A stretch of 64,000 nucleotides of DNA from Octopus vulgaris (taxonomy: Eukaryota), in the NCBI GenBank assembly GCA_951406725.2, contig OX597817.1:82088001-82152000 (forward strand). The letters are read 5' to 3'. The position numbers were made by a program, and so were the translations under genes. Below are positions 4,200 through 58,376 of this stretch, piece by piece (positions within the stretch are counted from its first letter, which is position 1; each line of letters begins with the position of its first letter). A model generated the notes under the pieces. That model saw nothing but the letters and a program-made list of their open reading frames with translations, was not told the DNA's origin and did not search any database.

Positions 4200-4232
4200 T
4201 TCGGATTTCTGGTTCGGTTTTATTTTTACCAA
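4200..4232 (-). CDS. Multi-VWA protein linker microexon (VGKNKTEPEIR)
   Basis: ttcatttag|TT GGT AAA ... ATC CGA A|gtgagt; 33 nt, phase 1-1, at the expected place between VWA4 and VWA5. Confidence 0.75.
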
Positions 4233-9455: not shown

Positions 9456-10734
9456 CATTCTTATATGAATATGTATATATGTCATATATATATATGTAAA
9501 TATATTTATATATATGTCATATGTATATATATTCAACAAAAACTCCATTAAACTATAAATTCCATTAACGAGTTTAACCCTTGCCAGAACCAGAATTTCA
9601 ATGAAACACATTTATACAGATCATGGTATGATCATACAGCTCATAGTATAATACATTAAAACCCCATCATAAACTATAAACTCTCTATATAAGTTTAACC
9701 CTCACCAGAACTAGAATCGCAATAAAAGATAAAGAGAATACAAGATACAAAAGGATCACAGTCAACAGCATATGTGACTAAACAAACATCAAACGTATGT
9801 ATCAACAGTCAGCAACTTAACAGATATCATTATGGTTGGCCAGTATCCTTCAAACCAACTGTCAAAAGCACAGACATAAGCAAAACATCAGAGCACAATT
9901 CCCTAACTGTGCTCTGATGTTTGAGAGATAATTGCTCCCACTGTAGAGCAACAGTTTCCCTGTTTATTGTGTTACTTTAATGAGTTAATCAAAGGGGAGG
10001 AGGGCTCTGCTCATGACCATTTTTATGGCCTCAGAACATGGTGGAAAGAAAATAGGAAGTTATTCGTTGACCTGGACCAAATGCTTAACAGAGTGGACTC
10101 CACTAAAAGTATCTAAGAGAGTTACGTGGTGTTGTTAAACCGAAATAGCGATGACGACCGCGGTCCACGAACAGGAACTCTCTCTCTCGGACAGGCTTCT
10201 CTAAGATTTATGTTAAACCAAATTTTAGTGACAAGGGTTTTGAGGATTAAAGTAGATCGGAATTAAGTGTGGTGACCTAGTAGATAATTTAATCAGAGAT
10301 CTTACATATGAAGGCACAACTTGCTACTATAAGCAATTTTGAAAAAAGGAAAGAAACAAATAACAAAGAAACCACAATGTATTGCTTATATGAGAAATAA
10401 CGAAATGATCACGACAAATTGATGATGATGAGGATGATGATGATGATATTGATGGTGGTGACGATTATGTTGGTGATAATAGTAGTAGAGATGATGCTGT
10501 TGCTTTGCTGATGGTAACATGTTGCTGCTGATAATGATAATGATGATAAAATAATGCTGCTGTTGCTGCCGAAGGTGGTGATTATGCTGAGATTTATAGG
10601 GATGAGATCAGTGGCAATGATGATGACGCTGACAACGGATCTTGTAATGGAGGCGGTGGCGGTGGTGTAGGGAATGGTGATAGTTGTGCTAAAGAATATT
10701 AAAGAAAAAAGAAATTAATAATAACAAGATATAC

Positions 10735-11024
10735 CTTCACAAGTTCTTACAGCAAGCGCGGCCCTGATTTTCTCCAAAGCTTTGAAGTTGCTGACAGTGA
10801 AAACATGATCGGCGTCTGGATCTGTTGAAATATCTTTCAGTTCTCGATAGAGTGCTTGGGAACCAATACCAATGGAGAAAACAGTAGCCAACTTCTTCAG
10901 TTTCATAGCTTCAGAAGCTGTTGATGCCGGAACGTTTGACTTGCCATCCGTGACGACGATAACGATATTGGGAATGTTTGGTCGATTACCGTTTTGCGGT
11001 AAAAGACTAATTGTTCTAATATAT
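10735..11024 (-). CDS. Multi-VWA protein exon: VWA domain 4, C-terminal half
   Basis: tctttcag|A TAT ATT AGA ... TGT GAA G|gtatat; 290 nt, phase 2-1; RPNIPNIVIVVTDGKSN ... VFSIGIG ... RTCE. Confidence 0.92.
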
Positions 11025-11057
11025 CTGAAAGAAGAATAGTAAATATTTGGTTTGATA

Positions 11058-11962
11058 TCTACTACATATGTGGAAAATCGGTGTGTGTTTGTTTGTGGCG
11101 TTGTTAGCTAACTCCTCCTACATCGTTTTCTCGATTTTGATAAAACTTGACAGGTGGGTAGAACTCATGTCTGGATACAACATGACATACTTAGATTGTT
11201 GAAAAAATCGATAATACGGCCCTTGGAAGGGACCATTATATGTACCTTATATAACTAATCATTTTTTTAAATACCCAAGGGAAATAACTCATACCCCTAT
11301 ACAATATGTTTTTAAACACTCAAGGGAAATAAACCATTTCATTGTTTATGCTGGATTACTTTGAACCAACGATCAGTCGACCTAATTCTGCATTTCACTA
11401 CTCACAGTTTTGAAATGCTAAGCATTATTATTGCACTTTATTAATTTGAATCTCTTCATTCATACATTTTTATACATGAATACATTTTTGAATGCCCATT
11501 ACTCCGATAACTCTTCAATTTTACAGTTACACTTTTTCCATGACAGTAGATAAATTTCTTTTATTTCACAACGTATTTGTAGTGGCTCCGTACACGCATA
11601 TTGTGGATTCGGTCCTCGATTGCCAAAATTTCACGTAACACTTCAAGAGAGCTTTTCTCACAGTAAAACAATAGTTTTTCTGTGAATGACAGCAGTTATG
11701 CATTTCCCAGATGCCTTCTCTAAGCAGAATAATGTCTTTGCCTCTTGCCAACCTCAGACACCCTCTCTCACCAACCTCCAAAAGCCTCTCTCGCCAACGT
11801 CCAACAATCTCTCCCTCCTCCAGCTGTCAGTTTTTTGTACTTTTTCGTGACGGAAAATACACCTTTTGTGGCAGTTATAAGGAAATTGCTTTCTTCTATC
11901 AGAGTAATAAGGCGTTTCAATAGAATATATTTACCCCCGGAATTTCCGGGTACACCAGCTAG
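11058..11962 (+). mobile_element. Non-autonomous Helitron
   Basis: A|TC 5' end; subterminal hairpin CCCGGAATTTCCGGG then CTAG|T; sits between A and T with no target duplication. Confidence 0.7.
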
Positions 11963-12171
11963 TGTATATATTATATATAAATATATATATATATACGTTT
12001 AAATATTTGTTGTGCAAGATTTTTTATGTGAAGTCGTGTGTTGAAACAGATATTGTTATATTTCGGAATGGTCATATTGCCAGTTTAGCCAATAAAAACA
12101 CACGCACTATATATTTGGTGTTATTTTGCTTCAGTGATATTTATTTTTTACATTAATCTTAATCTTATTTC

Positions 12172-12216
12172 GGCCAAAGTTCTTTCGTCACACTCCTGTG
12201 ACCGCATCAGTGGTCC
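12172..12216 (-). ncRNA. Minimal, variant-core hammerhead-like motif in the Penelope pLTR
   Basis: GGACCA-CUGAUGCG-GUCACA(GGAG)UGUGAC-GAAA-GAAC-UU-UGGCC. Core deviates from CUGANGA and stem III is vestigial. Confidence 0.55.
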
Positions 12217-12679
12217 TTTGTTTTCTTCTCTTTACTTGTGTCTCTCCTTACTAACCGTCAGCCATTTTGTATTTCTATTGTATGTCTTCATTTGCGCATG
12301 CTTATATCTCTATGTGCGTCTATGTTTATTTAGTGTGTGGGGGGGATGCCTGTAATATTTGTATCTTCTGGTTATATACATTCTTGTAATTTGTATTTTG
12401 TTTTTGTTGTTGTTGCTTTTGTTCTAATTTTCTTCATGTGTTTATATCCACCCATTATTATCATTACATATGCTTGTATGTATGTATAACAACAATATTA
12501 GTAATAATAATAATAAATCTAATCGAAAAAAAAAATATATATACATATACATATATATATATACATACATATACATATACATATACATACATATATACAC
12601 ACATACATACACATATAGATATCCATTTCTATTTCTTTAATTACCTGTGTATTTATTATGTTTGCAGGATCCACTATTG

Positions 12680-13950
12680 TCATATGTTGTGGTGTGCGCT
12701 ATTGCTCCATTCTAGTTTTCTATTCAGGCTAGGTTTATTTTCTATTATATGTGTAGCTTCTGTAATTTGTCTAATTGTTGCATCTGTTCTATGTGTGGAC
12801 AATATCTTAATCTCTATGTTATTGATTGATCCCCCGTGTTCTTGTTCGGCGTGTTGGTACAGAATCGATGAGCTTTTACCTTCCTTGAGTTGTCTCCAAT
12901 GTTCATTCACCCGCTCACCAATGCTTCTTGCAGTTTCCCCTACGTATGTTACTGTCTTGTTACTGCATCGTCCCTCTATACATCTTATACTATAGACCAC
13001 ATTTCTGGCTTTACAGTTCGTTTGTGGGCTAAATCTACATACAGTGCAATAGTTATCCGTACAGAGAGTTCTACTAAAAGGATAGCTTCTACCAATTATA
13101 GATCTGATAGGGTTGCCTGGCTTTTCAACAACCTTAATTCTTAGTTTAAGTTTATCTAGGGTCCTTCTAAAGCGGTACGCTAGTTCACCTCCAGGGGTGG
13201 TGTCAACGAACATGACACTCTGGTATTTATGGCTATCATACCAAGAGTTGGCCTTCCCTATTTTCTTTTTTGTCCTTTCTATAGTGTTCCATGACTTGTT
13301 CCTATAGAGTGGGCAAATCCCATTCCTATCATTACATAATATATTATCAAATTTCTTCATGGCTCCTTTGTATACTCTGATCCTTTCTTTATGGCTGTAA
13401 CCTGAGAACTGCATGCGGTGAATGAAATACTGTATGTGTCTCTTTAATTCTGTAGGCTCGCACATGCGTGACACATTTCTCATTATTCTGACGAGGTCTG
13501 CCATCAAAATATTGAATTTGGCATTGCCCGCAATGGCTGAGTTCCGGTGGATCAGGTATTTTGAGGCCATAGGTTTTGCATAGTATGAATGAAGGATTTG
13601 GGTTTTATTTTTCACAATTTCTAGCCAGAGTTCAGTGTCTAGTACTGGTAGTCTATGGTTGGGGTGTTTAGTGGGGTAGTCTATTGTGACCTTAATACTC
13701 TGGTGGATGGAGTTAGCTATTTGCTGGATGCTCTCCATAGTATTAGTTTCTATTACTATATCAACAGTACTCTCTTGTGGGGGTGCCTTTACTACTATAT
13801 TGATATCATCAACATAGCGAGAGTACATGTTTACGAGTATGGATTTCTGCAGTAGGCATTCTTTAAGCCTTCTGTCCCACCATACCATGAAGAGGTTGGC
13901 CACATCACCAGCGATACTAACACCGATGGCTGCCCCCTCGTCCTGGGCAT
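12680..13950 (-). CDS. Penelope-like RT C-terminal part plus GIY-YIG endonuclease (5'-truncated, open frame)
   Basis: QDEGAAIG...ANLFM (RT motif B), YVDD, Cys-rich linker (CTDNYCTVC...C), VVY...YVGETARSIGERVNEH and E...LN motifs of GIY-YIG. Confidence 0.9.
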
Positions 13951-14280
13951 ATATTTTATTATTAAATTTAAATTAGATTTATTATTATTATTACTAATAT
14001 TGTTGTTATACATACATACAAGCATATGTAATGATAATAATGTGTGGATGTAAACACATGAAGAAAATTAGAACAAAAGCAACAACAACAAAAACAAAAT
14101 ACAAATTACAAGAATGTATATAACCAGAAGATACAAATATTACAGGCATCCCCCCCCACACACTAAATAAACATAGACGCACATAGAGATATAAGCATGC
14201 GCAAATGAAGACATACAATAGAAATACAAAATGGCTGACGGTTAGTAAGGAGAGACACAAGTAAGTGAGAAGAAAACAAA

Positions 14281-14325
14281 GGACCACTGATGCGGTCACA
14301 GGAGTGTGACGAAAGAACTTTGGCC
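14281..14325 (+). ncRNA. Minimal, variant-core hammerhead-like motif in the inverted pLTR
   Basis: Reverse-complement copy of the motif at 12172-12216. Confidence 0.55.
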
Positions 14326-14439
14326 GAAATAAGATTAAGATTAATGTAAAAAATAAATATCACTGAAGCAAAATAACACCAAATATATAGTGCGTGTGTT
14401 TTTATTGGCTAAACTGGCAATATGACCATTCCGAAATAT

Positions 14440-14513
<74 letters not shown>

Positions 14514-14560
14514 ATATTTCGGAATGGTCATATTGCCAGTTTAGCCAATAAAAACACACG

Positions 14561-14602
<42 letters not shown>

Positions 14603-15738
14603 TTATGTATTTATGTATGTATGTATGTATGTATGTATGTATGTATATATATATATATATCAAACTTCCCTAAATACTATCTGTAATTCTGCAATGACTC
14701 AAACGGAAAAATGTGTCGCTCAAGAAGGACTTCAGTCTGAACAATTTTCATGATGTTTCATATTTAGATGCTTTTATTAAATTCATTCAGTTGGATTTAA
14801 ATGGTTTTGATTTTGGCCAACACTGTATATATATATATATATATATATATAAGCATAACTACATATATGTACCACCTCGATTTTGTTGCCTCATAACTTC
14901 CAGAAAAATGGATACATTTTAACGAAATTCTGAACAAACTCCACTTAGAGTATATGGCGATTTGTTGCAGAGAAAGTTTCCGAGGAGTTGGGGAGAGGAG
15001 TATCAAAAAATTCACACGATCCGACATTTATTCCATCATAACTTTCAGGAAAATGGGTATATTCTAATGAAAATTTATACAAATACTCTTCAAACGTCAT
15101 AGATTACGACTATAAAGAATTTTGTGGTAAAATGTTCGAAAAGATGGAGTTTCGGGTCAGGAAGACAGACCACAAGAGCTGGAATTTCTCCGTTTTGATA
15201 GGGATTTTACCGATTTTTTTCCACCAAAAGCTTCGAAATGATGGGGGTGGGTTGGGATAGTGAGGGCATCTCTTTATGAACAAAAAGCTTTTAAATTCAT
15301 TTTTCTTTATTCTCCCCTCTCTCCATCCCACTGCGCACCGATTTGGGACAATTGTTTTTGTACTAAAAAACCATAGGAGGAGATTTATCGGTAAAAAAAA
15401 ATGTAAATATTTTTAGAGGAAAAAGTGTGTGATTTAAGGAAGATTTGGCTGGGAGGCAAGCTTCTTAAGCACATAACTACGTCTGCGCCTTGAGTTTTAC
15501 GTATACAAATGTGTTCCCTTATTTATATGTACTTATGTACTTATGTATGCATGTATGTATGTCTGTATATATATGTACATATGGTATGTTTGTATGTATA
15601 TATATATATATATATATCACAATCAAGGAACGGCCATAATAGGCCATTCACCCACTAGAAATAACAGCCAAAAGCTTTAACCGCAAAATAACGTCAATTC
15701 CGTAAACCAGGAGAAAATTAAAAAACATTTACCCTGTA

Positions 15739-15845
15739 ATTTCTTAGACGATGCACCGTTTCATCTACCGTTTAATGGAAAACTAACCTGATTGAATCAA
15801 ATCAAGCCAATCTACCATAGGCCCTTAGATTCATCAGTAAGAAAT
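15739..15845 (-). ncRNA. Type I hammerhead ribozyme with long stem II insertion
   Basis: Stem I AUUUCUUA/UAAGAAAU; core CUGAUGA; stem II AUCUA...UAGAU; GAAA; near-palindromic stem III CGGUGCAUCG; GUC cleavage triplet (cut between 15747 and 15746). Confidence 0.8.
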
Positions 15846-15888
15846 AGCCAAGCCGGAACAGATATTTTTCACGAGGCATTCTCGTTGC

Positions 15889-16256
15889 TACCTCGTCAAT
15901 ATCTGACCTAAAATTTTCAAATCGTCGCACTCGCGCCAAATTTATCGGCAGCAAATAAATATAAGCCGCCGATTCCATTACGGAATTAACCAGAAAATTC
16001 ATAATTAATCAATATAGGGTAAAAAAATTTTGTAGAATTCTTTTGCCACCAGCGGCCTAGTGGGAAAAAATGTTTTCCCACTAGGCCGCTGGTGGCAAAA
16101 GAATTCTACAAAATTTTTTTTGCCACCCTATATTGATTAATTATGAATTTTCTGGTTAATTCCGTAATGGAATCGGCGGCTTATATTTATTTGCTGCCGA
16201 TAAATTTGGCGCGAGTGCGACGATTTGAAAATTTTAGGTCAGATATTGACGAGGTA
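15889..16256. repeat. Near-perfect inverted repeat (about 180-bp arms, 4-nt spacer)
   Basis: 15889-16068 is the reverse complement of 16073-16256 apart from one small indel. Belongs to a (TA)n-flanked element at about 15618-16306. Confidence 0.95.
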
Positions 16257-16940
16257 TATATATATATTTCTTACTGATATATATATATATATATCGTCTA
16301 AGAAATATGTATGTATAGACACATACACACACACACATACATGTAGGTGCGTGAGTGTCAGAAATGCTTTACGGTATAGCTTCCGGCTCGCAACATTCTG
16401 AGTTTAAATTACATCTGTCTAGAGAAGGCCAGTATCCTCCAGGATCCTTCCACTTATGCATACATTCACAAGTAACTCACTGAATTCACAACGTCGCATC
16501 AAAGTCATACCGGGGTACACTCACTGTATGTATTCCACCTCCACTATAGACTCCAGATCCAAACGTATGGGAAGTTCCGTGTTAGGTGAAGAATAAATAA
16601 CATAGATGAGTTGCAGTTGATGTATGTGTATATAATATATTATTATATAACATAATGTATATATATATATATATATATATAAGTTTAACAATTAAGGATA
16701 ATCTCTAAATAAGGGATCTTAACAAGAAATTATCGGGTAGCTAGCGTGAAAACCTCATAAAAGAAAAGAATCCGAAAATAATTTTTTTCTTTTGAACAAA
16801 TTAATTATATCTATATTGTATAGAGGGCATTATTACACATAAATGCCTCACACTAGGAGGGACAAAGTCATTACTACCAAAATTATACTAATCATACCCA
16901 AATGCAGTTTTTCAAAGCAAGACATTTAAAAAATGAATTT

Positions 16941-16998
16941 AGTTCTGTATCACCGTGATTTCACATTCAACTTACGTCTAATGATCGTCAGCAGAACT
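16941..16998 (-). ncRNA. Type I hammerhead ribozyme (unit 1)
   Basis: AGUUCUG-CUGACGA-UCAUUAGAC(GUAA)GUUGAAUGU-GAAA-UCACGGUGA-UA-CAGAACU: 7-bp stem I, canonical core, GNRA-capped stem II, near-palindromic stem III, AUA triplet. Confidence 0.85.
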
Positions 16999-17420
16999 GA
17001 TTCTGAACACATCATAAATAAACTACCAACCTTACGTAGCGAAGACGAACAGACAACTGCTCACTCCGGCCAAGCACATGGAATGTTTATAAATCATATA
17101 TCCGGTAAATGGCGGGCTTTTTATGAACTGCATGTCGGGTAATGAAAAGTATTTCGGAATAAGTTTAACAATTAAGGATAATCTCTAAATAAGGGATCTT
17201 AACAAGAAATTATCGGGTAGCTAGCGTGAAAACCTCATAAAAGAAAAGAATCCGAAAATAATTTTTTTCTTTTGAACAAATTAATTATATCTATATTGTA
17301 TAGAGGGCATTATTACACATAAATGCCTCACACTAGGAGGGACAAAGTCATTACTACCAAAATTATACTAATCATACCCAAATGCAGTTTTTCAAAGCAA
17401 GACATTTAAAAAATGAATTT

Positions 17421-17478
17421 AGTTCTGTATCACCGTGATTTCACATTCAACTTACGTCTAATGATCGTCAGCAGAACT
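17421..17478 (-). ncRNA. Type I hammerhead ribozyme (unit 2)
   Basis: Identical to the unit 1 motif, exactly 480 nt away. Confidence 0.85.
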
Positions 17479-17870
17479 GATTCTGAACACATCATAAATA
17501 AACTACCAACCTTACGTAGCGAAGACGAACAGACAACTGCTCACTCCGGCCAAGCACATGGAATGTTTATAAATCATATATCCGGTAAATGGCGGGCTTT
17601 TTATGAACTGCATGTCGGGTAATGAAAAGTATTTCGGAATAAGTTTAACAATTAAGGATAATCTCTAAATAAGGGATCTTAACAAGAAATTATCGGGTAG
17701 CTAGCGTTATTCCGAAATACTTTTCATTACCCGACATGCAGTTCATAAAAAGCCCGCCATTTACCGGATATATGATTTATAAACATTCCATGTGCTTGGC
17801 CGGAGTGAGCAGTTGTCTGCTCGTCTTCGCTACGTAAGGTTGGTAGTTTATTTATGATGTGTTCAGAATC

Positions 17871-17928
17871 AGTTCTGCTGACGATCATTAGACGTAAGTT
17901 GAATGTGAAATCACGGTGATACAGAACT
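17871..17928 (+). ncRNA. Type I hammerhead ribozyme (inverted copy)
   Basis: Same motif read directly on the + strand; predicted cut after 17921. Confidence 0.85.
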
Positions 17929-18049
17929 AAATTCATTTTTTAAATGTCTTGCTTTGAAAAACTGCATTTGGGTATGATTAGTATAATTTTGGTAGTAATG
18001 ACTTTGTCCCTCCTAGTGTGAGGCATTTATGTGTAATAATGCCCTCTAT

Positions 18050-18096
<47 letters not shown>

Positions 18097-18333
18097 CCAA
18101 ATGAATAATAACAGACCTTAGATAATTGTCAGCTCCATCGTTTGTTATTATTCATTTGACTATAACACACCATAGAGATTTACGACACGTCGGAAACTCT
18201 GGAGTAAGCCAACAATGTATAATCACCGTAACGTGTGCTTCGGACCAGCAGCTAGGCGCTAAATACTCATATGGCTGGTTTTCTCTGTGTACCAGAACTC
18301 ATCTTTTCAAGTAACCGATTCTCTCTGAATCCT

Positions 18334-18379
<46 letters not shown>

Positions 18380-18480
18380 ATGCGCGCGCACACACACTCA
18401 CACACACACTCACACACACACACTCACACACACACACTCACACACACACACACAAATACACACACGTTTATATAAATTAC

Positions 18481-18757
18481 CTGAGAGCGTCTGCAGTATT
18501 CGTAGAGCCAGCTTTGTACTTGACGTTCGATATAGCTTTGTCCAACTCTGATGCGTTGAAATATTTGTTCAAATGGAACTCAAGTACAGAGTTATCAGAA
18601 AAAGTGACCAGTCCTACTCTGACATCATCTTTACCTATGTCGAACGATTGTACCATACGATGAACAAAAGTCAGCATTAACTTGTAGCTATGTTCATCCA
18701 CACTTGCCGAAGTGTCCAGTGCAAATATTATATCAGCCATCGTGCGATTGCAAACAA
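18481..18757 (-). CDS. Multi-VWA protein exon: VWA domain 4, N-terminal half
   Basis: ttttcag|TT GTT TGC AAT ... GCT CTC AG|gtaatt; 277 nt, phase 1-2; ADIIFALDTSAS ... GSTNTADALR. Confidence 0.92.
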
Positions 18758-19470
18758 CTGAAAAACAGAAACAAAAAATTATATGGATAATGACATTTAA
18801 CAGAAGACCGTCATACAATAATATTATGGTGTGATGGTAGGCTGAAAGAAGACACTACTCTAGGTAAATCAGTCGAGTTAGAAATAATAATAATTATATA
18901 TACAGTGAATAAAAGCACTCTCTATGCTGTTCATATGATAAAGCTAAACATTATATGTATCCACACACACACACACACACACACACATTACGCATCACTG
19001 TCCTCTTAGTGATGATAGCAACGTGATGTAGTACATCCTGTCGTGTGCTCGCGACTAAATTGGCTACCACATCGAGCTTGCTTGGTAAGGAAAGCAATTC
19101 TTTAGTTGGACACTTTGCAGGGCAAACAATAAAACTTGTCGAGAGGCGGATTACCTCGGGATCGTCAAATGACATCGAACAGCTGGGAGTGAGAAAACCC
19201 CTCCGCCATGTCTTTGTTAAGAGATATCTCTGGGAGAAGGAATATTCTGATATAACACATGCGCCTTCATTTGTATCTAATGAGACTACTTCTTTTTAGA
19301 CAAATGCTGCGTTGTTCAGAGAGTGGAATTGGTCTCATGCAAGGCAAAACATTAGGCACAGGCATCACTTGATGGCAGACTGTAGCTGAGAGAGATTAAA
19401 CACTCACTGAAAAATGGAATAATTAGCAAGTAATGCAGTGTTGAATACTTATTCTCACAGCTCGATTTTA

Positions 19471-19598: not shown

Positions 19599-19709
<111 letters not shown>

Positions 19710-22700
19710 GTGCCAAAAGTCACCTGACAGTAAATCAAACCCATTTAATTCCAAGATTTATCTATGTTTAACAACTGAATAAGTTTAATAAAAGCATCTA
19801 AATACGAAACACAATGAAAATTTATTCAAACTAAAGTTCTTCTTGAGCTGAAAAAAGAAAGAAACAAAATTGTATTCGATCACAACAAACCTATTATATT
19901 TTGAATAATTTTTTGAATTTGGAATGAGATTTTCCTCTGGCCACTCTTCAACGTATTTCGTTTGGTGAACATTTCTAACAAAATATTTTCATCTAATGAT
20001 CAAATCTATTTTACTGTAAATTATGAATTCTTTCGTGGGTATCGATACAGCTTAGTTGAGAGAACACTACACTGAAGGTTTTTGATTCAAGCCAAGAATT
20101 CGACTCACTGAAATTATTATTTTAAAAAAATGTCCATCGTTTCAGTTTGAGGAAGTAAGAGAAGGGTCTATTTCAATCTCATATTTTTCCATATCCACAA
20201 ATCAATGTAATTGTATATTTTTTTTACTGTCTAAATTTCATTATGGTCTTGCCCTTTCTATCCATGCATCAAATTCCAGATGCTTTTTTCTTTTTAGCTT
20301 AGATTCTTACATTTCCATTCAATTGAAAGCACTCTGTTCAATATATATGCAGTTCTAGAAGTGCTTTTTACGCTTCTAGTTGAAATCGTTTACCAGAATC
20401 AATTTAGCTTTTACATCCCTTCAGGGTATATAATATATCTACCATTAGCATTTGGCTTTGATACAAGAGACTATAACCTTCCTTCATTATGTTGCTTTCT
20501 ACTACTACTGATTGTGAGGATCACATCGTTAATATCTTTATCACTGCCTCCTTCCACTGCATGCCTTGCCACAAGCTGTTTAGCAATAAACATATGCAGT
20601 TTTCGTTATATATTTCCTGAGAATAACTTGCATAAGATGCATCAGCGAGTGACTAGTTTTAGTATTCTATATTATGAATATTTTAAGCTTTGCTTTTCAC
20701 TTTTACTCTGATCGATAGAAAAGCAGTTATAATGAAACAGGGAGTCGATTCACTCGACCATAACCTTCTCATATAAATGTGTGATTCTTTTCTTAGTCGT
20801 TGAACATAATTATCATTAGTAGCAAAGTGACAGTCTGATATGTGTCCGTATATTACTGATTTGTGGCTTTATATCAAACTGCTTTGACACGTCCTGGACA
20901 GGTCTGACTATAAGTCAACTATCTCGTGAACATCAGCCCATCGCCTTCCTTTGACCACAAAAAGAGTAGGTAATCTTCCTCAGGTAGTCTGGACAATAAA
21001 AGGAGTGGAGTGTATACAGTTGAAATGTTTGAAGATAGAACTTTCCTATTCAGGTTGAAATCTCATTAATTACGATTTGAAGAGAAAGGTGTAGCGAGAG
21101 TGCGTGGGGCTGCCCTTCGGTAAATGAGAGATAATGGAGAAACTGACAGGGGCTACTCGAATTGTGCGCCTGTAGTAGAAATAAGACCTGGAAGAAGGCA
21201 CTTGGTAGTCCGGGATTTATATTGACTACAGAAGCAGTACAAACGTTGGTGCAAAGTATAAGTATCGGTGGGCTCGATCGTTTCGTGGATGTCATCTAGG
21301 ACAGTCTGTACTGTCTCTTCTTGTAAACCTTAATGTAGAAGATCATAGACAATTTTCCAATAACTTGATATGGAAAGGCTCTAGGCGGGGCATTGCTTCT
21401 TCGGCTTGCTTCTTCGGCGTAAATTCTGCCATTACAGAAGTCCAGCGGTCAAATATTTAGATGCACACAGAGCGACGGAATCATCCAGGTTTTACTCACT
21501 CAAAGTCAGTGAATTGCCGACACGAAAATTTTTGTTGAAAATCTGCTATCACATGTAAGAAGAGTCTAGCTATCAACCAAGATTATTGTAAAGATCCATT
21601 TACTGCCCTCCCTTAGCTAGAATGGCTAGTTAGTCTCCGTCTGTCTATTGGTTATCGGGGAGCATGTTTTCTGGTTGATAGAGCTCAATGGTTAATGGAC
21701 AGAGCTTTCTTTTGTAGCTCTCGTTAACTTCTTCAAAACCCATTTAAAATGGAAGTTGAGGGTGAAGAGGGAGTCGCTGGTCTCCGGTGTGTTTAACGAA
21801 TGTTGGTAAAGGGCAATGTAACTCTCGATGTTAAACCAGTCAAATCTTGTTAAGTGTCGGACAAAATGCTTAGCGGAATTTATTCCCTCCTTACGTTCTG
21901 AGTTCAAATTTCGACGAGGTCGATTTTGCCTTCCATCTTTTCAAAATAAGTGCCAGTGATGCACTGTGATCGATGTAATCGACTAGTTCCCTCCCACCAA
22001 ATTTCAGGCCTCGTGCCTTTACAAGAAAGGATTGTTATTATTTTCATTATTATCATTACAACAACTACTACTACTTGGTTTCAAATTTTGGCACAAGGCC
22101 AGCAATTTGTAGAAGTAGTAGTAGTAGCAGCCCCAACAGTATAGATGTTAAGGTTAATGGCTACTATTAATAATTAATTTCAAAATGTCCTAAATGAGCT
22201 ATTGTTATTAAGATTCTAATTTTTCGGATTATTAACCTTAATATCCCCTCTGAAGTAAAGGTTAATTGTCAGGAAAATTAGAATCTAAATTAATATAATT
22301 AGTAGAAGGCCAGTAGAAGGTATAATCGGATAAAATATTTGCCTTCCCATATTTCATTGAAACTAATTAAAACTGGGAGCAATGCTGCCTTTCTTCCGTG
22401 AGGAATCGGTAAGATAAAATTCCAATTGAGTACAGATATCGATTTAATCCCTTATATTACCAAATTTCTATCTGCCTGTCCTTGTGTTTATATTTTAACC
22501 ATTATTATCTGGATTTCATCCTTGTGAAAACCAAGACTATGAATGCCAGAGACTGTGAAAAACGTCGGGTGTAGACCCGTCTGTACAAATCGGGCAATGT
22601 GATGGCTGGATTGTCCAGGGTAGCGTTCCGTAAAAGCTGTAAATCTATAACAATCAGCTGGGTAACTTATAGTAATCCTGACCTGGCAGAGCTACAGGGC

Positions 22701-27351: not shown

Positions 27352-28099
27352 TGTATGTATGTATGTATGTATGTATGTATGAATATATAAGTACGTGTAT
27401 CCTTGCGTGTGTATGATTATGTTCTTATATACAAGAACATCCGTTCTCATGGTAGTGTTTAGATCAGTGAAAACTAGTACTGTGTTTAATTTATATTCCT
27501 TTCACGCCCCATATCCTAATGGTTCCATAAACAAAGATCGCAAAGAAAATAATAAATTACAAATGACGCTCTCGATGTGGATCGAACCGCTCTCGTCATT
27601 ATTACTCATCATTAGATTTGTTGTGATTATCGCTCGCAAATTTCTGTTTTGATTTTTATGCGTATCAGAACGAACCTAAAAACACAGAAATCGGCTAGTC
27701 GACCAGTTTTGTCTCCGTATCTACATAGCAATTGTAATTATAGTAACTAGTAATAAAATAATCAAACGGTAGCGAAGCACGTTCAATACAATTCAAGTGA
27801 TACGTACTAGCCATAAGTGCAATAACGTAATTTCATGTAGATACCATTCTAGGCAATCTAGTTTAGTCACGTTTAAATTAACAACGAAAAACTCAGGAAG
27901 GTGAGAAGATATTGTTATAGAGTTCATTACAGTTCTATCAATATTCTATGGGAACCTACCGTGATTCAACTGTTTGACTTTCGAAATTGATTTATGTACA
28001 ATTTTGATATGAGAATCAGATCAGTAATCTAAAGGTTAGATACAATATATAACAACATTTAACATAGATGGTGATTAGCAAACTTGTATGAATGAATGA

Positions 28100-28840
28100 A
28101 TGTATGTATGGAGAGTTAGCTAAAGGAGAACGACCTCCACATAAACCAAAAAAGAGGTATAAGGACTTGCTGAAGGCTTCCTTAAGAGATGCTTGCATCT
28201 CTCCTGACACATGGGAAGGCATAGCTATTGATCGTAGCAGGTGGAGAAGGATTGTGCACGAGGGGACAACCACTTTTGAGAAATCTCGAGTTGCACATGA
28301 GAAAGTAAGGAGGGATGTCAGGAAGGGCATCGCTGTTACACTTCCAGATGGGAAAGGTCTTCCTATGATGCTGACATGCAGTGTCTGTGCAAGACCCTGC
28401 CTCAGTATACCTGGTCTCAAGAGTCATCTTCGTAGTCATAAAGCGAGACAGATGAGTGACAACCTGGCCACTGGTGGTGGTGTTATACACCATACTAATC
28501 ATATCTCTCAGGCATGTGGAAAAGAGTGTAATTCGGCAGGAGGACTTAAACGACATGCAAAGGTACATGAAGCCCAGTTACAACTACAGCCGGCTATTAC
28601 CGGTAAAGGTTTTAGTTGCCAATTCTGTACAAGACATTGTAGATATTTGGCTGGTCTAAAAAGTCACATTCGATCACAGCACCAGCTTCATGAAATGGCC
28701 ATACCCGATAACGAGGGGGCAGCCATAATTTATGTATGTATGTATGTATGTATGTATGTATGTATGTATGTATGTATGTATGTATGTATGTATGTATGTA
28801 TGTATGTATGTATGTATGTATGTATGTATGTATGTATGTA
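28100..28840 (+). mobile_element. RTE-clade LINE 3' fragment with C2H2 zinc fingers and (TATG)n tail
   Basis: YGEL..G.R....PKKRYKD.LK..L......WE..A.DR..WR (typical RTE post-RT segment), then three C2H2-like fingers and a microsatellite tail. Confidence 0.8.
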
Positions 28841-31410: not shown

Positions 31411-31482
31411 GATCCCACTGATGAACTACTGATGACAAATTAATTTATTTGCTCATTAATAGGGAAACTCAAGTATGGGATT
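31411..31482 (+). ncRNA. Type I hammerhead ribozyme, probably partly decayed
   Basis: Stem I GAUCCCA/UGGGAUU; CUGAUGA; long stem II with an A-G mismatch at its base; GAAA; short stem III CUCAAG; GUA triplet. Lies in a diverged direct repeat with period of about 455 bp. Confidence 0.7.
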
Positions 31483-37471: not shown

Positions 37472-38635
37472 GGTGTCCAGAAAAATGTATGCACTCTTTA
37501 CCAGCTGATAACTCAATTGATGATTTTTCTTTCCAGATTAAACTGATTGAAATTAATGATGCACTCAGACTAAGCTTTGAACAAAGGAAATTCATTCTAA
37601 AATGTTGCTTGAAGTGTGAAAACGCAGTTGAAGTGCAAAAACAGTTTAGAAGGGAGTTTCAAACCCATCCACCAACACGACTCACCGCCACTCGAATTAG
37701 AGATAAGTTTGAAGCCGATGGAACTGTTCAGAATGTCCACGAGAAGCGTTCCGGAAGACCACGAACATCGAGAACCCCCACAAAGTAAGAAGGAGTGCTG
37801 GAAAGGTATGACCAAAGTCCAAGAAAATCTGTGCAGCAAGCAAGTCGTGAGGTAGGTATTCCAAAATCGTCTGCCCAATGCATTTTGAAGCGTTGTCAAT
37901 AGAAAAGTTACTTTCCAAGATTAGTCCATGCTATTAATGACGTTGATCCAGACTGAGATGTGCAGTATTGCGTGTGGTACTTGGCACGATGTGTAGAAGA
38001 AGCACACTTTCCAACAAAGATTGTGTGGGGTGATGAGGCTACATTCAATTCATTTAACCGGTACAATTGCACCTACTGGAGACCTGAGAATTCGCACGTT
38101 ATGGTGGAATACCATGTCAATTTACCAGGAGTTACAGTGTGATGTGGTTTATCGTCAAAGGGATTAATTGGATCATTCTTTTTTGACGCTACTGTAATTG
38201 GTCCCGTTTACTTGAACTTGCTGCAACAGTCTGTCATGCCAAGCATTAGAGAAGATGAGGAGTTTTATTTTCAGCAAGATGGGGCACCTCCACACTACCA
38301 TTGCGGATCCTTTGAATACCCTCCGCGTTAACCAGACCTCAGATCACAAGACTTTTTTATGGGGATACTTAAAAGATAAAGTCTAAGCTATGAAACCTGC
38401 AACAGTAGCTGATTTGAGAGCAGCCATTGAACGAGAATGCACACAAATACCAAACGATTTGTTTCGTGATGTTTGCGATTCTATTGTTTCGCGTTGTCAG
38501 CAGGTTGAAAACAGGCGTTGGAAAAAAAATTAATTAATGTCTGTAGATTCTATTAAATTTTGAAAATGAAATGTATTTTGATAAACCTATTTTACAATTA
38601 TTTAAAGTGTGTATACATTTTGTTGGAACACACTA
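37469..38635 (+). mobile_element. Decayed Tc1/mariner-superfamily DNA transposon
   Basis: TA|CAGGGTGTCC... with an imperfect inverted end at about 38603-38635. Transposase remnants ([11 protein letters not shown]...[35 protein letters not shown]) carry stops and frameshifts. Confidence 0.88.
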
Positions 38636-49688: not shown

Positions 49689-50569
49689 ATTTATCCTACA
49701 TGAGAACGGCACAGCTCGGTGTGACCCCCAAAAACCAATATTGGCAGCTGACATCATTAGGCTGTAGCCAGCATAATAAAATGGGAACTTTTATATGTAT
49801 ATTCAAAACGTTTCACGTAAAAGAACTTAATGGATATATATATATCGGGCAAATTTAGATTCAGTAGGGGATATAATACCACTTGCTAAAATCAGAGTCG
49901 CGCCTCGAAGCCACCATAAAGTCACAATAAAGATACACACGGGTAATGCAATGAACGTATTAGAAATAGGCTTACCTTTGCGTTGAATACATCAGTAAGG
50001 ACTCTATATTTCAATACAGATTGATTTCATCCTCTGTATGTCCAATATTTTACGATAGTTTTCTTTTAAACGGAGCAGAACGTTTAAAGAAATTAATGCA
50101 CGCTAGCTAATGTAGTGAATATTTTAGAAATAGATGTTAAAATGTTATTTTCAACTGAAGATCCCAGAGTATGTTGGTCATACAGAGGGTGAAATCAATT
50201 GGTATTGAAATATAGATTACTTACTGATGTGTTCAACGCAAAGGTAAGCCTATTTCTAATATGTCCATTGCATTGCTCGTGTGTATCTTTATTGTCAGTT
50301 CATGGTGGTTTTCGAGCCTTGGCTCTGATTTTAGCCAATGGTACTATATACTTTACTGACTCTAAATTTGCTTTATATTGTGCCTATAACGGTGTGAACT
50401 TGCTGACCATTTTATTATTACCTTAATAACGGAAACAATACATCGTTATTTAATATATGTATATATGTATATATATATGATACGGAGCCATTTCTACATA
50501 ATTATCTGTAACGTAATGCAATAAAGTGTCCTCTGATGTGCAGTTTTAGTTGATCATCTTCGAGATTGG

Positions 50570-57823: not shown

Positions 57824-57905
<82 letters not shown>

Positions 57906-57906
57906 T

Positions 57907-58376
57907 GTGAAAGACCAAAACAATAAAGTTTGCTTATTGATTGACATGAGCATCCCCTGTGATCATAATATCTCAGCGAAAGAGTTTGACAAGCTCAGAA
58001 AATATAAAGACTTACTCATTGAAATTGAGAAAATGTGGCATCTCAAGGCGGTTACAATACCAGTGATCGTAGGAGCACTAGGAATGATCAAGAAGGGAAC
58101 CGAAAATTATATGAGAATGATCCCTGGCTTACCATCCCTGCAAGAAGTGCAAAAGATTGTCTTAACTGGTACATCACACGTATTGAGAAGAGCATTGTCG
58201 ATGTGAGAACTGTTGCTGCTCATGTATTTTAATTTAACTTAAAAAAAAAAAAATTAAATGAACGAACTATTGAGTTTGGTTTAATGGCCTACCAATGAAT
58301 ACTATGAGTTTCTTTGCCCTAGGAGTCGGGAAGACACTCGGCAAGAAATGGAAGCAAATTTGAAAGAAGAAAAAAA

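What the first reader, a model, noticed from the sequence alone, without database searches (positions are those of the whole stretch)
11025..18480. One 7.5-kb intron holds six hammerhead motifs from three unrelated elements
Seen: sense (minus-strand) motifs at 17421-17478, 16941-16998, 15739-15845 and 12172-12216, and antisense copies at 17871-17928 and 14281-14325. All are in the intron that splits VWA4, and each element lies in or beside (TA)n. I found only two such motifs in the rest of the window. Inference: this is a hotspot for Penelope-type insertion into TA microsatellites. The pre-mRNA may be cut co-transcriptionally mid-domain, so splicing would have to cross a severed intron or the transcript would be truncated after VWA3.
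Basis: partly seen in the sequence, partly recalled or inferred. Interest (0 to 1): 0.75.

Follow-up and report, generated by a model that had tools for sequence, protein, structure and literature searches.

The report
Three ribozyme retroelements share one intron
The six hammerhead (self-cutting RNA) motifs in this intron come from only three recent insertions of jumping elements of known kinds that are abundant in this genome; most are predicted to be masked by their own mirror copies, and an RNA contig shows the intron spliced out correctly.

Summary
The six motifs are real and sit at the stated coordinates in a 7,456-nt intron that splits the fourth of six VWA domains. They come from three insertions. 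A is a 5'-truncated Penelope-like element, probably Neptune-type (2 motifs, non-consensus C9 core). B is a 480-nt tandem retrozyme (3 motifs). C is a ~490-nt retrozyme (1 motif). All three families are young and multi-copy, end in (TA)n, and have two fixed 3' ends, the Penelope 'tail' footprint. Tandem and head-to-head copies come with such insertions, so 'six' overstates the case: 6 of 40 other retrozyme loci carry six or more from one insertion. Background is about 22 elements per Mb. Families do not co-cluster (20.8 vs 22.5 per Mb), and chance predicts a few hundred three-element intervals, so no special hotspot is needed. In the pre-mRNA, antisense arms are made first and are predicted to mask three of four sense motifs. 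One RNA contig is spliced across the intron and runs on to the next exon; whether that animal carries the insertions is unknown. The scan found the same element types in other introns of this genome. Known kinds; cleavage untested.

The parts
18481..18760 (-). Host exon: first half of VWA domain 4 of a six-VWA extracellular-matrix-type gene; donor AG|GT, phase 2
   Evidence: joined to 11024 in the X8 contig
10734..11024 (-). Host exon: second half of VWA domain 4
11025..18480 (-). Intron, 7,456 nt, GT..AG; same position and phase as the intron in VWA6, so older than the insertions; A, B and C fill 63% of it
16679..18063 (-). Element B: 480-nt non-coding tandem retrozyme; about 2.1 units sense to the gene (16679-17707) plus a 357-bp inverted arm (17707-18063); ends at monomer positions 269 and 142, both in (TA)n
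17871..17928 (+). Hammerhead B, antisense copy in the inverted arm; transcribed first in the pre-mRNA
17421..17478 (-). Hammerhead B1 (sense); predicted cut after 17428; predicted buried in a 357-bp duplex with the inverted arm (stem I probability 0.0-0.02)
16941..16998 (-). Hammerhead B2 (sense); predicted cut after 16948; the only sense motif predicted free (stem I probability 0.86); U10.1-U11.1 mismatch, palindromic stem III
15617..16256 (-). Element C: truncated copy of a ~490-nt tandem retrozyme family; sense arm 15617-16070 ending at monomer position 130 in (TA)n, inverted arm 16073-16256
15739..15845 (-). Hammerhead C (sense); consensus core, 8-bp stem I, long stem II, GUC site; predicted cut after 15747
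16267..16306 (+). Two 13-14-nt fragments of hammerhead C (its two stem I strands) separated by (TA)n, continuing the inverted arm in order; antisense in the pre-mRNA and predicted to block stem I of C
11965..14447 (-). Element A: 5'-truncated Penelope-like element with pLTR 12050-12540, 85-bp tail to about 11965, and an inverted pLTR arm 13949-14447 ending in (TA)n
12683..13972 (-). C-terminal 430 aa of the element A ORF: end of RT, CX4CX2C linker, GIY-YIG-type nuclease read by eye; full-length copies elsewhere have 1,310-1,312-codon open frames
12172..12216 (-). Minimal hammerhead A (sense); core CUGAUGC plus one extra G (C at position 9); single copy on this strand; covered by the upstream antisense arm; predicted cut after 12177 if active
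14281..14325 (+). Hammerhead A, antisense copy in the inverted pLTR
14506..14570 (-). 65-bp 3'-terminal fragment of element A embedded in (TA)n
11052..11960 (.). Unclassified multi-copy repeat, not ribozyme-bearing, next to element A

Best explanation
The six motifs are the footprint of three separate, recent insertions into (TA)n tracts of an old intron, one Penelope-like retroelement and two non-coding retrozymes likely mobilised by Penelope enzymes, and they likely have little effect on splicing of the host gene. Shown: three young multi-copy families, each with two fixed 3' ends 85-127 nt apart, joined to (TA)n, often in tandem and head-to-head arms. Inferred: a Penelope RT/GIY-YIG protein nicks AT-rich DNA and starts reverse transcription at two internal sites of a tandem or circular RNA, depositing several motifs on both strands per event. 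Inferred: their meeting in one intron is the upper tail of about 20 such elements per Mb. Predicted: the arms point 3' ends outward, so the host pre-mRNA makes the antisense arm first; this masks B1, A and (through two short fragments) C, leaving B2 free without its dimer partner. Any slow cut is likely tolerated by exon tethering.
For: Motifs real. Family sizes: B 1,496, C 1,639 and A 309 first-look candidates, best copies 99-100% identical; 3,772 A-type and 833 B-type exact core patterns against 6 and 0 in controls; 98 of 98 scored A protein copies at 99-100%, several with full 1,310-1,312-codon frames. 3' ends next to (TA)n: B 21 of 26, C 38 of 40, A 27 of 39, each in two clusters. This matches the two RT start sites and tail shown for an anole Penelope (PMC11167929); A's two ends lie inside the start of its ORF as there. 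Motifs on both strands at 14 of 20 A, 12 of 24 C and 4 of 16 B loci. Six or more own motifs at 6 of 40 B/C loci. No co-clustering: 10 of 60 vs 13 of 80 stretches. Compensatory stem I changes in a 71%-identical sister family of B. Folding. Spliced contig. Same intron position in VWA6.
Against: 0 of 60 comparable young loci had two other hammerhead families nearby, and none had another of A/B/C. If only 5,000-10,000 loci are this young, chance gives 0.3-2.3 such triples. Random stretches were mildly over-dispersed (5 of 80 with two families, p about 0.03). B and C share no sequence with A, so the mobilising partner is unidentified. Masking rests on equilibrium folding, not co-transcriptional kinetics. 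The RNA evidence is one contig from one run of unknown genotype; run X15 did not cover the exon. Rfam listed no hammerhead hit, and Pfam gave only a weak RT hit for the truncated ORF and none for the full-length one.
Confidence: 0.78

Rival explanations
1. The intron is a true local insertion hotspot: exposed (TA)n tracts in a strongly transcribed gene attract Penelope nucleases, and each insertion leaves new TA flanks for the next.
For: Three young families in 6.1 kb, against 0 of 60 comparable loci with two other families. Extra tiny fragments of A and C in the TA tracts here, not found by the same test at 0 of 24 C and 0 of 16 B loci. High depth of the spliced contig in X8. A review states that PLEs tend to insert in or beside existing PLEs (PMC6765202, passage).
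Against: Other-family density near young copies equals background. The 200 kb of flanks hold 2 motifs. TA density of the intron (7 tracts of >=10 units) is within the random range (mean 5.1, max 25 per 10 kb). One of 3 background motifs tested has 100% identical peers and another 95-98%, so young elements are common.
Confidence: 0.25
2. The free ribozyme B2, perhaps with C, cuts a sizeable share of nascent transcripts 1.5-2.7 kb after the donor and 4.7-5.9 kb before the acceptor, lowering or tuning output of the gene, as proposed for CPEB3.
For: B2 keeps stem I at probability 0.86, and C has a consensus core. A coral retrozyme cleaves at about 0.8 per min during transcription (PMC7229834). Fast intronic ribozymes lower splicing (Fong 2009 as cited in PMC10919898).
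Against: B2 has a U-U mismatch at 10.1-11.1 and a stem III built for dimers whose partner is masked. In Xenopus 8 of 9 retrozyme dimers showed no cleavage in vitro, and about 43% of copies lie in introns. Hammerhead-cut introns were still spliced (PMC2995048). The spliced contig is abundant in X8. The elements are too young to be a conserved control device.
Confidence: 0.12
3. Part of the complex is an assembly artefact (fold-back or duplicated arms).
For: Perfect 549-bp tandem overlap and long palindromes; public contigs could not bridge the junctions.
Against: The same tandem, inverted and tailed layout with fixed ends recurs at dozens of other loci and is described for PLEs (PMC8557442). 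The arms differ by 0.6-3%.
Confidence: 0.04

Closest known systems
Metazoan non-LTR retrozymes (Cervera and de la Pena 2020, PMC7229834, part 2 of 6 read; Li, Clavereau, Pollet 2026, bioRxiv 10.64898/2026.07.22.740005, parts 1-3 of 5 read)
   Same: B and C are non-coding tandem units, each with one type-I hammerhead with a palindromic stem III, strongly self-paired as circles (z -5.0 and -5.6), dispersed as monomers to multimers, many of them intronic.
   Different: Units of 480 and about 490 nt are slightly above the 150-450 nt range of the 2020 paper (within the 51-972 nt of the 2026 preprint). No related pLTR was identified. Twin fixed 3' ends and inverted arms are evident here. Circular RNA was not shown.
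EN+ Penelope-like elements, Neptune/Nematis type (Craig et al. 2021, PMC8557442, passages read; Cervera and de la Pena 2014, PMC4209133, parts 1-2 of 4 read)
   Same: A has RT followed by a C-terminal GIY-YIG-type domain, a CX2-5CxxC linker, a pLTR with a minimal hammerhead and an extra nucleotide after position 9, 5' truncation with an inverted arm, a tail, and (TA)n targets.
   Different: Core position 9 is a pyrimidine, mostly C, in about 3,770 copies; the tail is 85 bp rather than 30-40; the clade was not placed on a tree.
PAc (Poseidon) of Anolis, in vitro mechanism (Frangieh et al. 2024, PMC11167929, parts 1-2 of 4 read)
   Same: Two internal RT start sites giving two fixed genomic ends inside the start of the ORF; AT-rich target; there the hammerhead was not needed for insertion.
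   Different: Different clade and tail length; here the same footprint is also carried by two non-coding families.
Intronic self-cleaving ribozymes: CPEB3 (PMC10919898, passages) and engineered hammerheads (Dye 2006, Fong 2009; not seen, cited through PMC2995048 and PMC10919898)
   Same: A sense ribozyme several kb upstream of the next exon could cut before splicing.
   Different: CPEB3 is a single conserved HDV-like ribozyme with measured activity; these are young transposon copies, mostly predicted masked, with no measured activity.

Membership tests
Type I hammerhead ribozyme | Core CUGANGA...GAAA...UH | tested here: met
   B and C match exactly.
Type I hammerhead ribozyme | Core A9 (motif A) | tested here: not met
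   A has C9 plus an extra G; the pyrimidine-9 pattern occurs 3,772 times. It is built like a minimal PLE hammerhead but is not a consensus member.
Type I hammerhead ribozyme | Stems I, II, III closing the core, ends in stem I | tested here: met
   Stem I 5-8 bp, stem II 4-6 bp, short palindromic stem III; B has U10.1-U11.1, reported as a natural variant in PMC3088659 (passage).
Type I hammerhead ribozyme | Compensatory changes among relatives | tested here: inconclusive
   Seen by eye for stem I of B against sister families; A and C copies are too alike; no formal pair count was run.
Type I hammerhead ribozyme | Match to an Rfam hammerhead model | tested here: not met
   None among the 150 rows shown of 189 at E<=1.
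Type I hammerhead ribozyme | Site-specific self-cleavage | not testable with these tools
   Only contigs, no raw reads, were available.
EN+ Penelope-like element (A) | Single ORF with RT and C-terminal GIY-YIG nuclease | tested here: inconclusive
   1,312-codon frame in full copies; YVDD and YSIRC..YVGET motifs read by eye; Pfam gave RVT_1 at E 0.011 for the truncated ORF and nothing for the full one.
EN+ Penelope-like element (A) | pLTRs with hammerhead; partial tandem, inverted 5'-truncated arm, tail | tested here: met
Neptune/Nematis clade (A) | CX2-5CxxC linker between RT and EN | tested here: met
   CTDNYCTVC in the ORF; definition from PMC8557442.
Neptune/Nematis clade (A) | RT phylogeny | not tested
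   No named reference PLE sequences were at hand.
Non-LTR retrozyme (B, C) | Tandem units each with a type-I hammerhead | tested here: met
   480-nt and ~490-nt spacing, up to 7 and 11 motifs per 10-kb locus; the C copy here is a sub-monomer.
Non-LTR retrozyme (B, C) | No coding capacity; highly self-paired monomer | tested here: met
   Longest ATG frames 69 and 66 aa; circular fold z -5.0 and -5.6.
Non-LTR retrozyme (B, C) | Expressed as linear and circular monomer RNA | not testable with these tools
   Contigs of tandem repeats cannot show circles.
Non-LTR retrozyme (B, C) | Descent from a PLE pLTR | tested here: inconclusive
   No similarity to A's pLTR; other PLEs of the genome were not compared.

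The most novel reading that the evidence does not exclude
Head-to-head Penelope-type insertion is self-silencing: whichever strand a host gene transcribes, the antisense arm is made first and buries the hammerhead, which is why tens of thousands of ribozymes are tolerated in this genome's introns. Only surplus tandem copies such as B2 stay live, and here B2 cuts nascent RNA of a highly expressed matrix gene, making a natural, probably polymorphic test of splicing across a severed intron.
Probability: 0.12. Interest if true: 0.6.

Novelty: new member of a known kind. Interest (0 to 1): 0.27.

Why it matters
As a locus it is ordinary for this genome: about 20 hammerhead-bearing elements per Mb, of described classes. 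Its use is as a test bed. One intron holds three unrelated young ribozymes in masked and unmasked states, in a gene whose spliced product is easy to detect, so it could show whether transposon hammerheads cut host pre-mRNA in an animal and whether inverted arms neutralise them. The shared two-ended tail of a coding PLE and two non-coding families adds to the case that retrozymes use Penelope enzymes.

Tried and rejected
Rfam scan: only microsatellite-driven miRNA hits among the rows shown. Insertion polymorphism: contigs of X1, X2, X3 and X8 on 16236-16708 matched the unique spacer exactly, but the tool skipped the TA-rich ends, so no verdict on filled or empty sites; none for A either. The run search listed no holder on record as RNA; X8 is treated as RNA only because its contig joins exons on both sides. 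X15 did not cover the exon, which is no evidence either way. Idea that an insertion created the intron: rejected, VWA6 has the same intron position and phase. Idea that families co-cluster genome-wide: rejected. Idea that TA-punctuated fragments are a family-wide signature: not supported, 0 of 24 C and 0 of 16 B loci; the 8 of 20 A hits were the element's own TA-rich 3' region; L016 looked similar by BLAST. Shared RT-start sequence among A, B and C: none above shuffles. Release of a 480-nt circle from B1-B2 here: unlikely, B1 is predicted masked. Fong 2009 and Lunse 2017 were not held. A search for A9 mutants gave one unrelated listing, so the effect of C9 is open. Look-ups of earlier findings by place and by sequence were empty. 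The 80 background stretches came from 16 contigs, within coordinate ranges known from earlier hits, so they are not a uniform sample; 80 of 100 drawn positions were fetched. My descriptor misses weak and permuted hammerheads, so the background is a lower bound. No supplements were read.
Full report
1. Observation. All six motifs are present at the stated coordinates and strands. A type-I hammerhead descriptor found exactly these six at score >=26 in the window, against 0.1 in 20 local dinucleotide shuffles. They are three sequences: B three times, A twice, C once. B and C have the consensus core. B has a U-U mismatch at 10.1-11.1, a natural variant noted in PMC3088659 (passage). A is a minimal motif with C at position 9. 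Rfam listed no hammerhead among the 150 of 189 rows shown. The intron is 11025-18480, minus strand, GT..AG, and its exons join in frame to a VWA domain. The gene has six VWA domains. The intron in VWA6 has the same position and phase, so this intron predates the insertions.

2. What the elements are. The genome has 2.8 Gb in 227 contigs; an octopus is my inference. Element A (11965-14447) is the 3' part of a Penelope-like element. It has a 430-aa open frame ending in a CX4CX2C linker and a GIY-YIG-type domain read by eye, a pLTR and an inverted pLTR arm. All 98 scored genomic copies are 99-100% identical in protein, and several have 1,310-1,312-codon frames. In full copies the hammerhead lies about 100 nt before the ORF start. 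Pfam support is weak. The linker points to Neptune or Nematis (PMC8557442, passages). Element B (16679-18063) is about 2.1 tandem units of 480 nt plus a 357-bp inverted arm. Element C (15617-16256) is a truncated copy of a ~490-nt tandem family. Both are non-coding, fold strongly as circles (z -5.0 and -5.6), and have 1,496 and 1,639 first-look candidates with best copies 99-100% identical. They fit non-LTR retrozymes (PMC7229834; bioRxiv 10.64898/2026.07.22.740005). A sister family of B, 71% identical, keeps stem I by compensatory changes. A, B and C share no sequence above shuffle level.

3. How they got there. In each family the free 3' ends fall in two clusters: B near 142 and 269 nt after the predicted cut, C near 130 and 235, A near 127 and 212. 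These ends abut (TA)n in 21 of 26, 38 of 40 and 27 of 39 cases. An anole Penelope starts reverse transcription at two internal sites on nicked AT-rich DNA, which gives the tail, and does not need its hammerhead for insertion in vitro (PMC11167929). I infer the same route here, with B and C borrowing a Penelope enzyme not yet identified. Copies run through the cleavage site several times, which implies a tandem or circular template (inference). One event leaves on average 1.8 (A), 3.4 (B) or 2.8 (C) motifs, on both strands at 14 of 20, 4 of 16 and 12 of 24 loci. Six or more motifs from one family occur at 6 of 40 B/C loci. Earlier unchecked notes of this scan describe the same twin-armed retrozymes in other introns, and 814 of 1,723 notes on this genome fit the word hammerhead; these are not independent support.

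4. Is it a hotspot? Eighty randomly drawn 10-kb stretches held 19 motifs at the same cut-off, in 13 stretches (shuffled mean 2.0), or 18 distinct elements, 22.5 per Mb. The intron is therefore about 34-fold denser per motif and 18-fold per insertion, but it was picked for being dense. At 20-30 elements per Mb, chance gives about 190-590 intervals of this size with three elements, and 0.8-2.4% of 64-kb windows. Around 60 other young A, B and C loci, other-family motifs were no denser than background (20.8 per Mb; 10 of 60 vs 13 of 80 stretches). The 200 kb flanking the window held two. Against this: none of the 60 had two other families, random stretches were mildly over-dispersed (p about 0.03), and if only 5,000-10,000 loci are this young the expected number of triples is 0.3-2.3. 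Youth is not rare, however: A-type cores alone number 3,772, and of 3 background motifs tested one had identical peers and one 95-98% peers. A mild local preference stays possible but is not required.

5. Effect on the host RNA. The arms point their 3' ends outward, so the pre-mRNA makes each antisense arm first. Equilibrium folding buries B1 in a 357-bp duplex (stem I probability 0.0-0.02). It blocks C through the two short antisense fragments at 16267-16306 (0.0 with them, 0.36-0.57 without). It leaves B2 free (0.86). A's 499-bp antisense arm gives a duplex of about -800 kcal/mol, although its partner is made 1.4 kb later. B2's stem III is a palindrome suited to dimers and its partner is masked. 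Metazoan minimal PLE motifs did not cleave as monomers and cleaved poorly as dimers (PMC4209133), and 8 of 9 Xenopus retrozyme dimers did not cleave, whereas a coral one cleaved at about 0.8 per min. Introns cut by a hammerhead were still spliced, whereas a fast HDV ribozyme aborted splicing (Dye 2006 and Fong 2009, seen only as cited in PMC2995048 and PMC10919898). In run X8 a 3,369-nt contig at depth 1611 covers the downstream exon, continues on one side into 18485 onward and on the other into an exon ending near 4230; its intronic contigs have depth 3.9-6.8. The gene is thus made as a spliced transcript beyond VWA4 in at least one sample. Whether that animal carries A, B and C could not be told, and contigs cannot show cut ends or partial losses.

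6. Novelty. The parts are new members of known classes, and intronic location is common (about 43% of Xenopus copies). A search for retrozyme with octopus listed two papers, neither about octopus retrozymes by title or abstract; an Octopus vulgaris repeat annotation has no occurrence of 'retrozyme' or 'ribozyme' in its main text (PMC13282606). These families may therefore be undescribed, within the limits of those searches; supplements were not read. The more interesting leads are masking by the inverted arm as a general rule and the C9 core in a young PLE family; both are untested.

7. Verdict. Observation confirmed. Penelope-type insertion into (TA)n is supported; a special hotspot is not needed; truncation after VWA3 is not supported. 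Interest 0.27.

Noticed in passing
window 16257-16306: The inverted arm of C breaks into two 13-14-nt pieces, exactly the two strands of hammerhead stem I, kept in order and separated by (TA)n. It may record RT skipping or repeated abortive priming. Not found at 24 other C loci; L016 (family B) looks similar.
   Followed up: partly
window 12172-12216 and genome-wide: A young PLE family with intact full-length ORFs carries a hammerhead with a pyrimidine (mostly C) at core position 9 in about 3,770 copies: either an active variant or a dispensable relic.
   Followed up: partly
window 14383-14570: A 188-bp palindrome: the end of A's inverted arm, (TA)n, then a 65-bp copy of A's 3' end facing back; similar short end pieces occur in L028 and L031.
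   Followed up: partly
window 55596 to about 8.8 kb left of the window start (L215): The host gene has six VWA domains; domains 4, 5 and 6 are split by introns, 4 and 6 at the same site. Best solved relatives of domain 3 are collagen VI alpha 3 and mussel proximal thread matrix protein 1. The gene was not named.
   Followed up: partly
window 50147-50212 (+) and 31411-31482 (+): Two further hammerhead-like motifs, antisense to the gene; the first also has a U10.1-U11.1 mismatch.
   Followed up: no
G000:C1:64638300-64655000 (L249-L264): An array of about 30 units of a 480-nt sister family of B (71% identical in L244) with compensatory stem I changes.
   Followed up: partly
window 11052-11960: A multi-copy repeat without a hammerhead; its start is also present at this site in runs X1 and X3, which carry different species labels. 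Unclassified.
   Followed up: no
window 14718-14871 and 19658-19848: Two diverged (69%) inverted copies of another small repeat.
   Followed up: no
window 28092-28700, 37500-37788, 57904-58206: ORF fragments that by eye resemble ends of other transposons (LINE-like, Tc1/mariner-like, restriction-like endonuclease); labels recalled, not tested.
   Followed up: no
L097:8355-9760: A randomly drawn 10-kb stretch with three different hammerhead motifs within 1.4 kb (one scoring just under my cut-off), showing that such clusters occur elsewhere.
   Followed up: no
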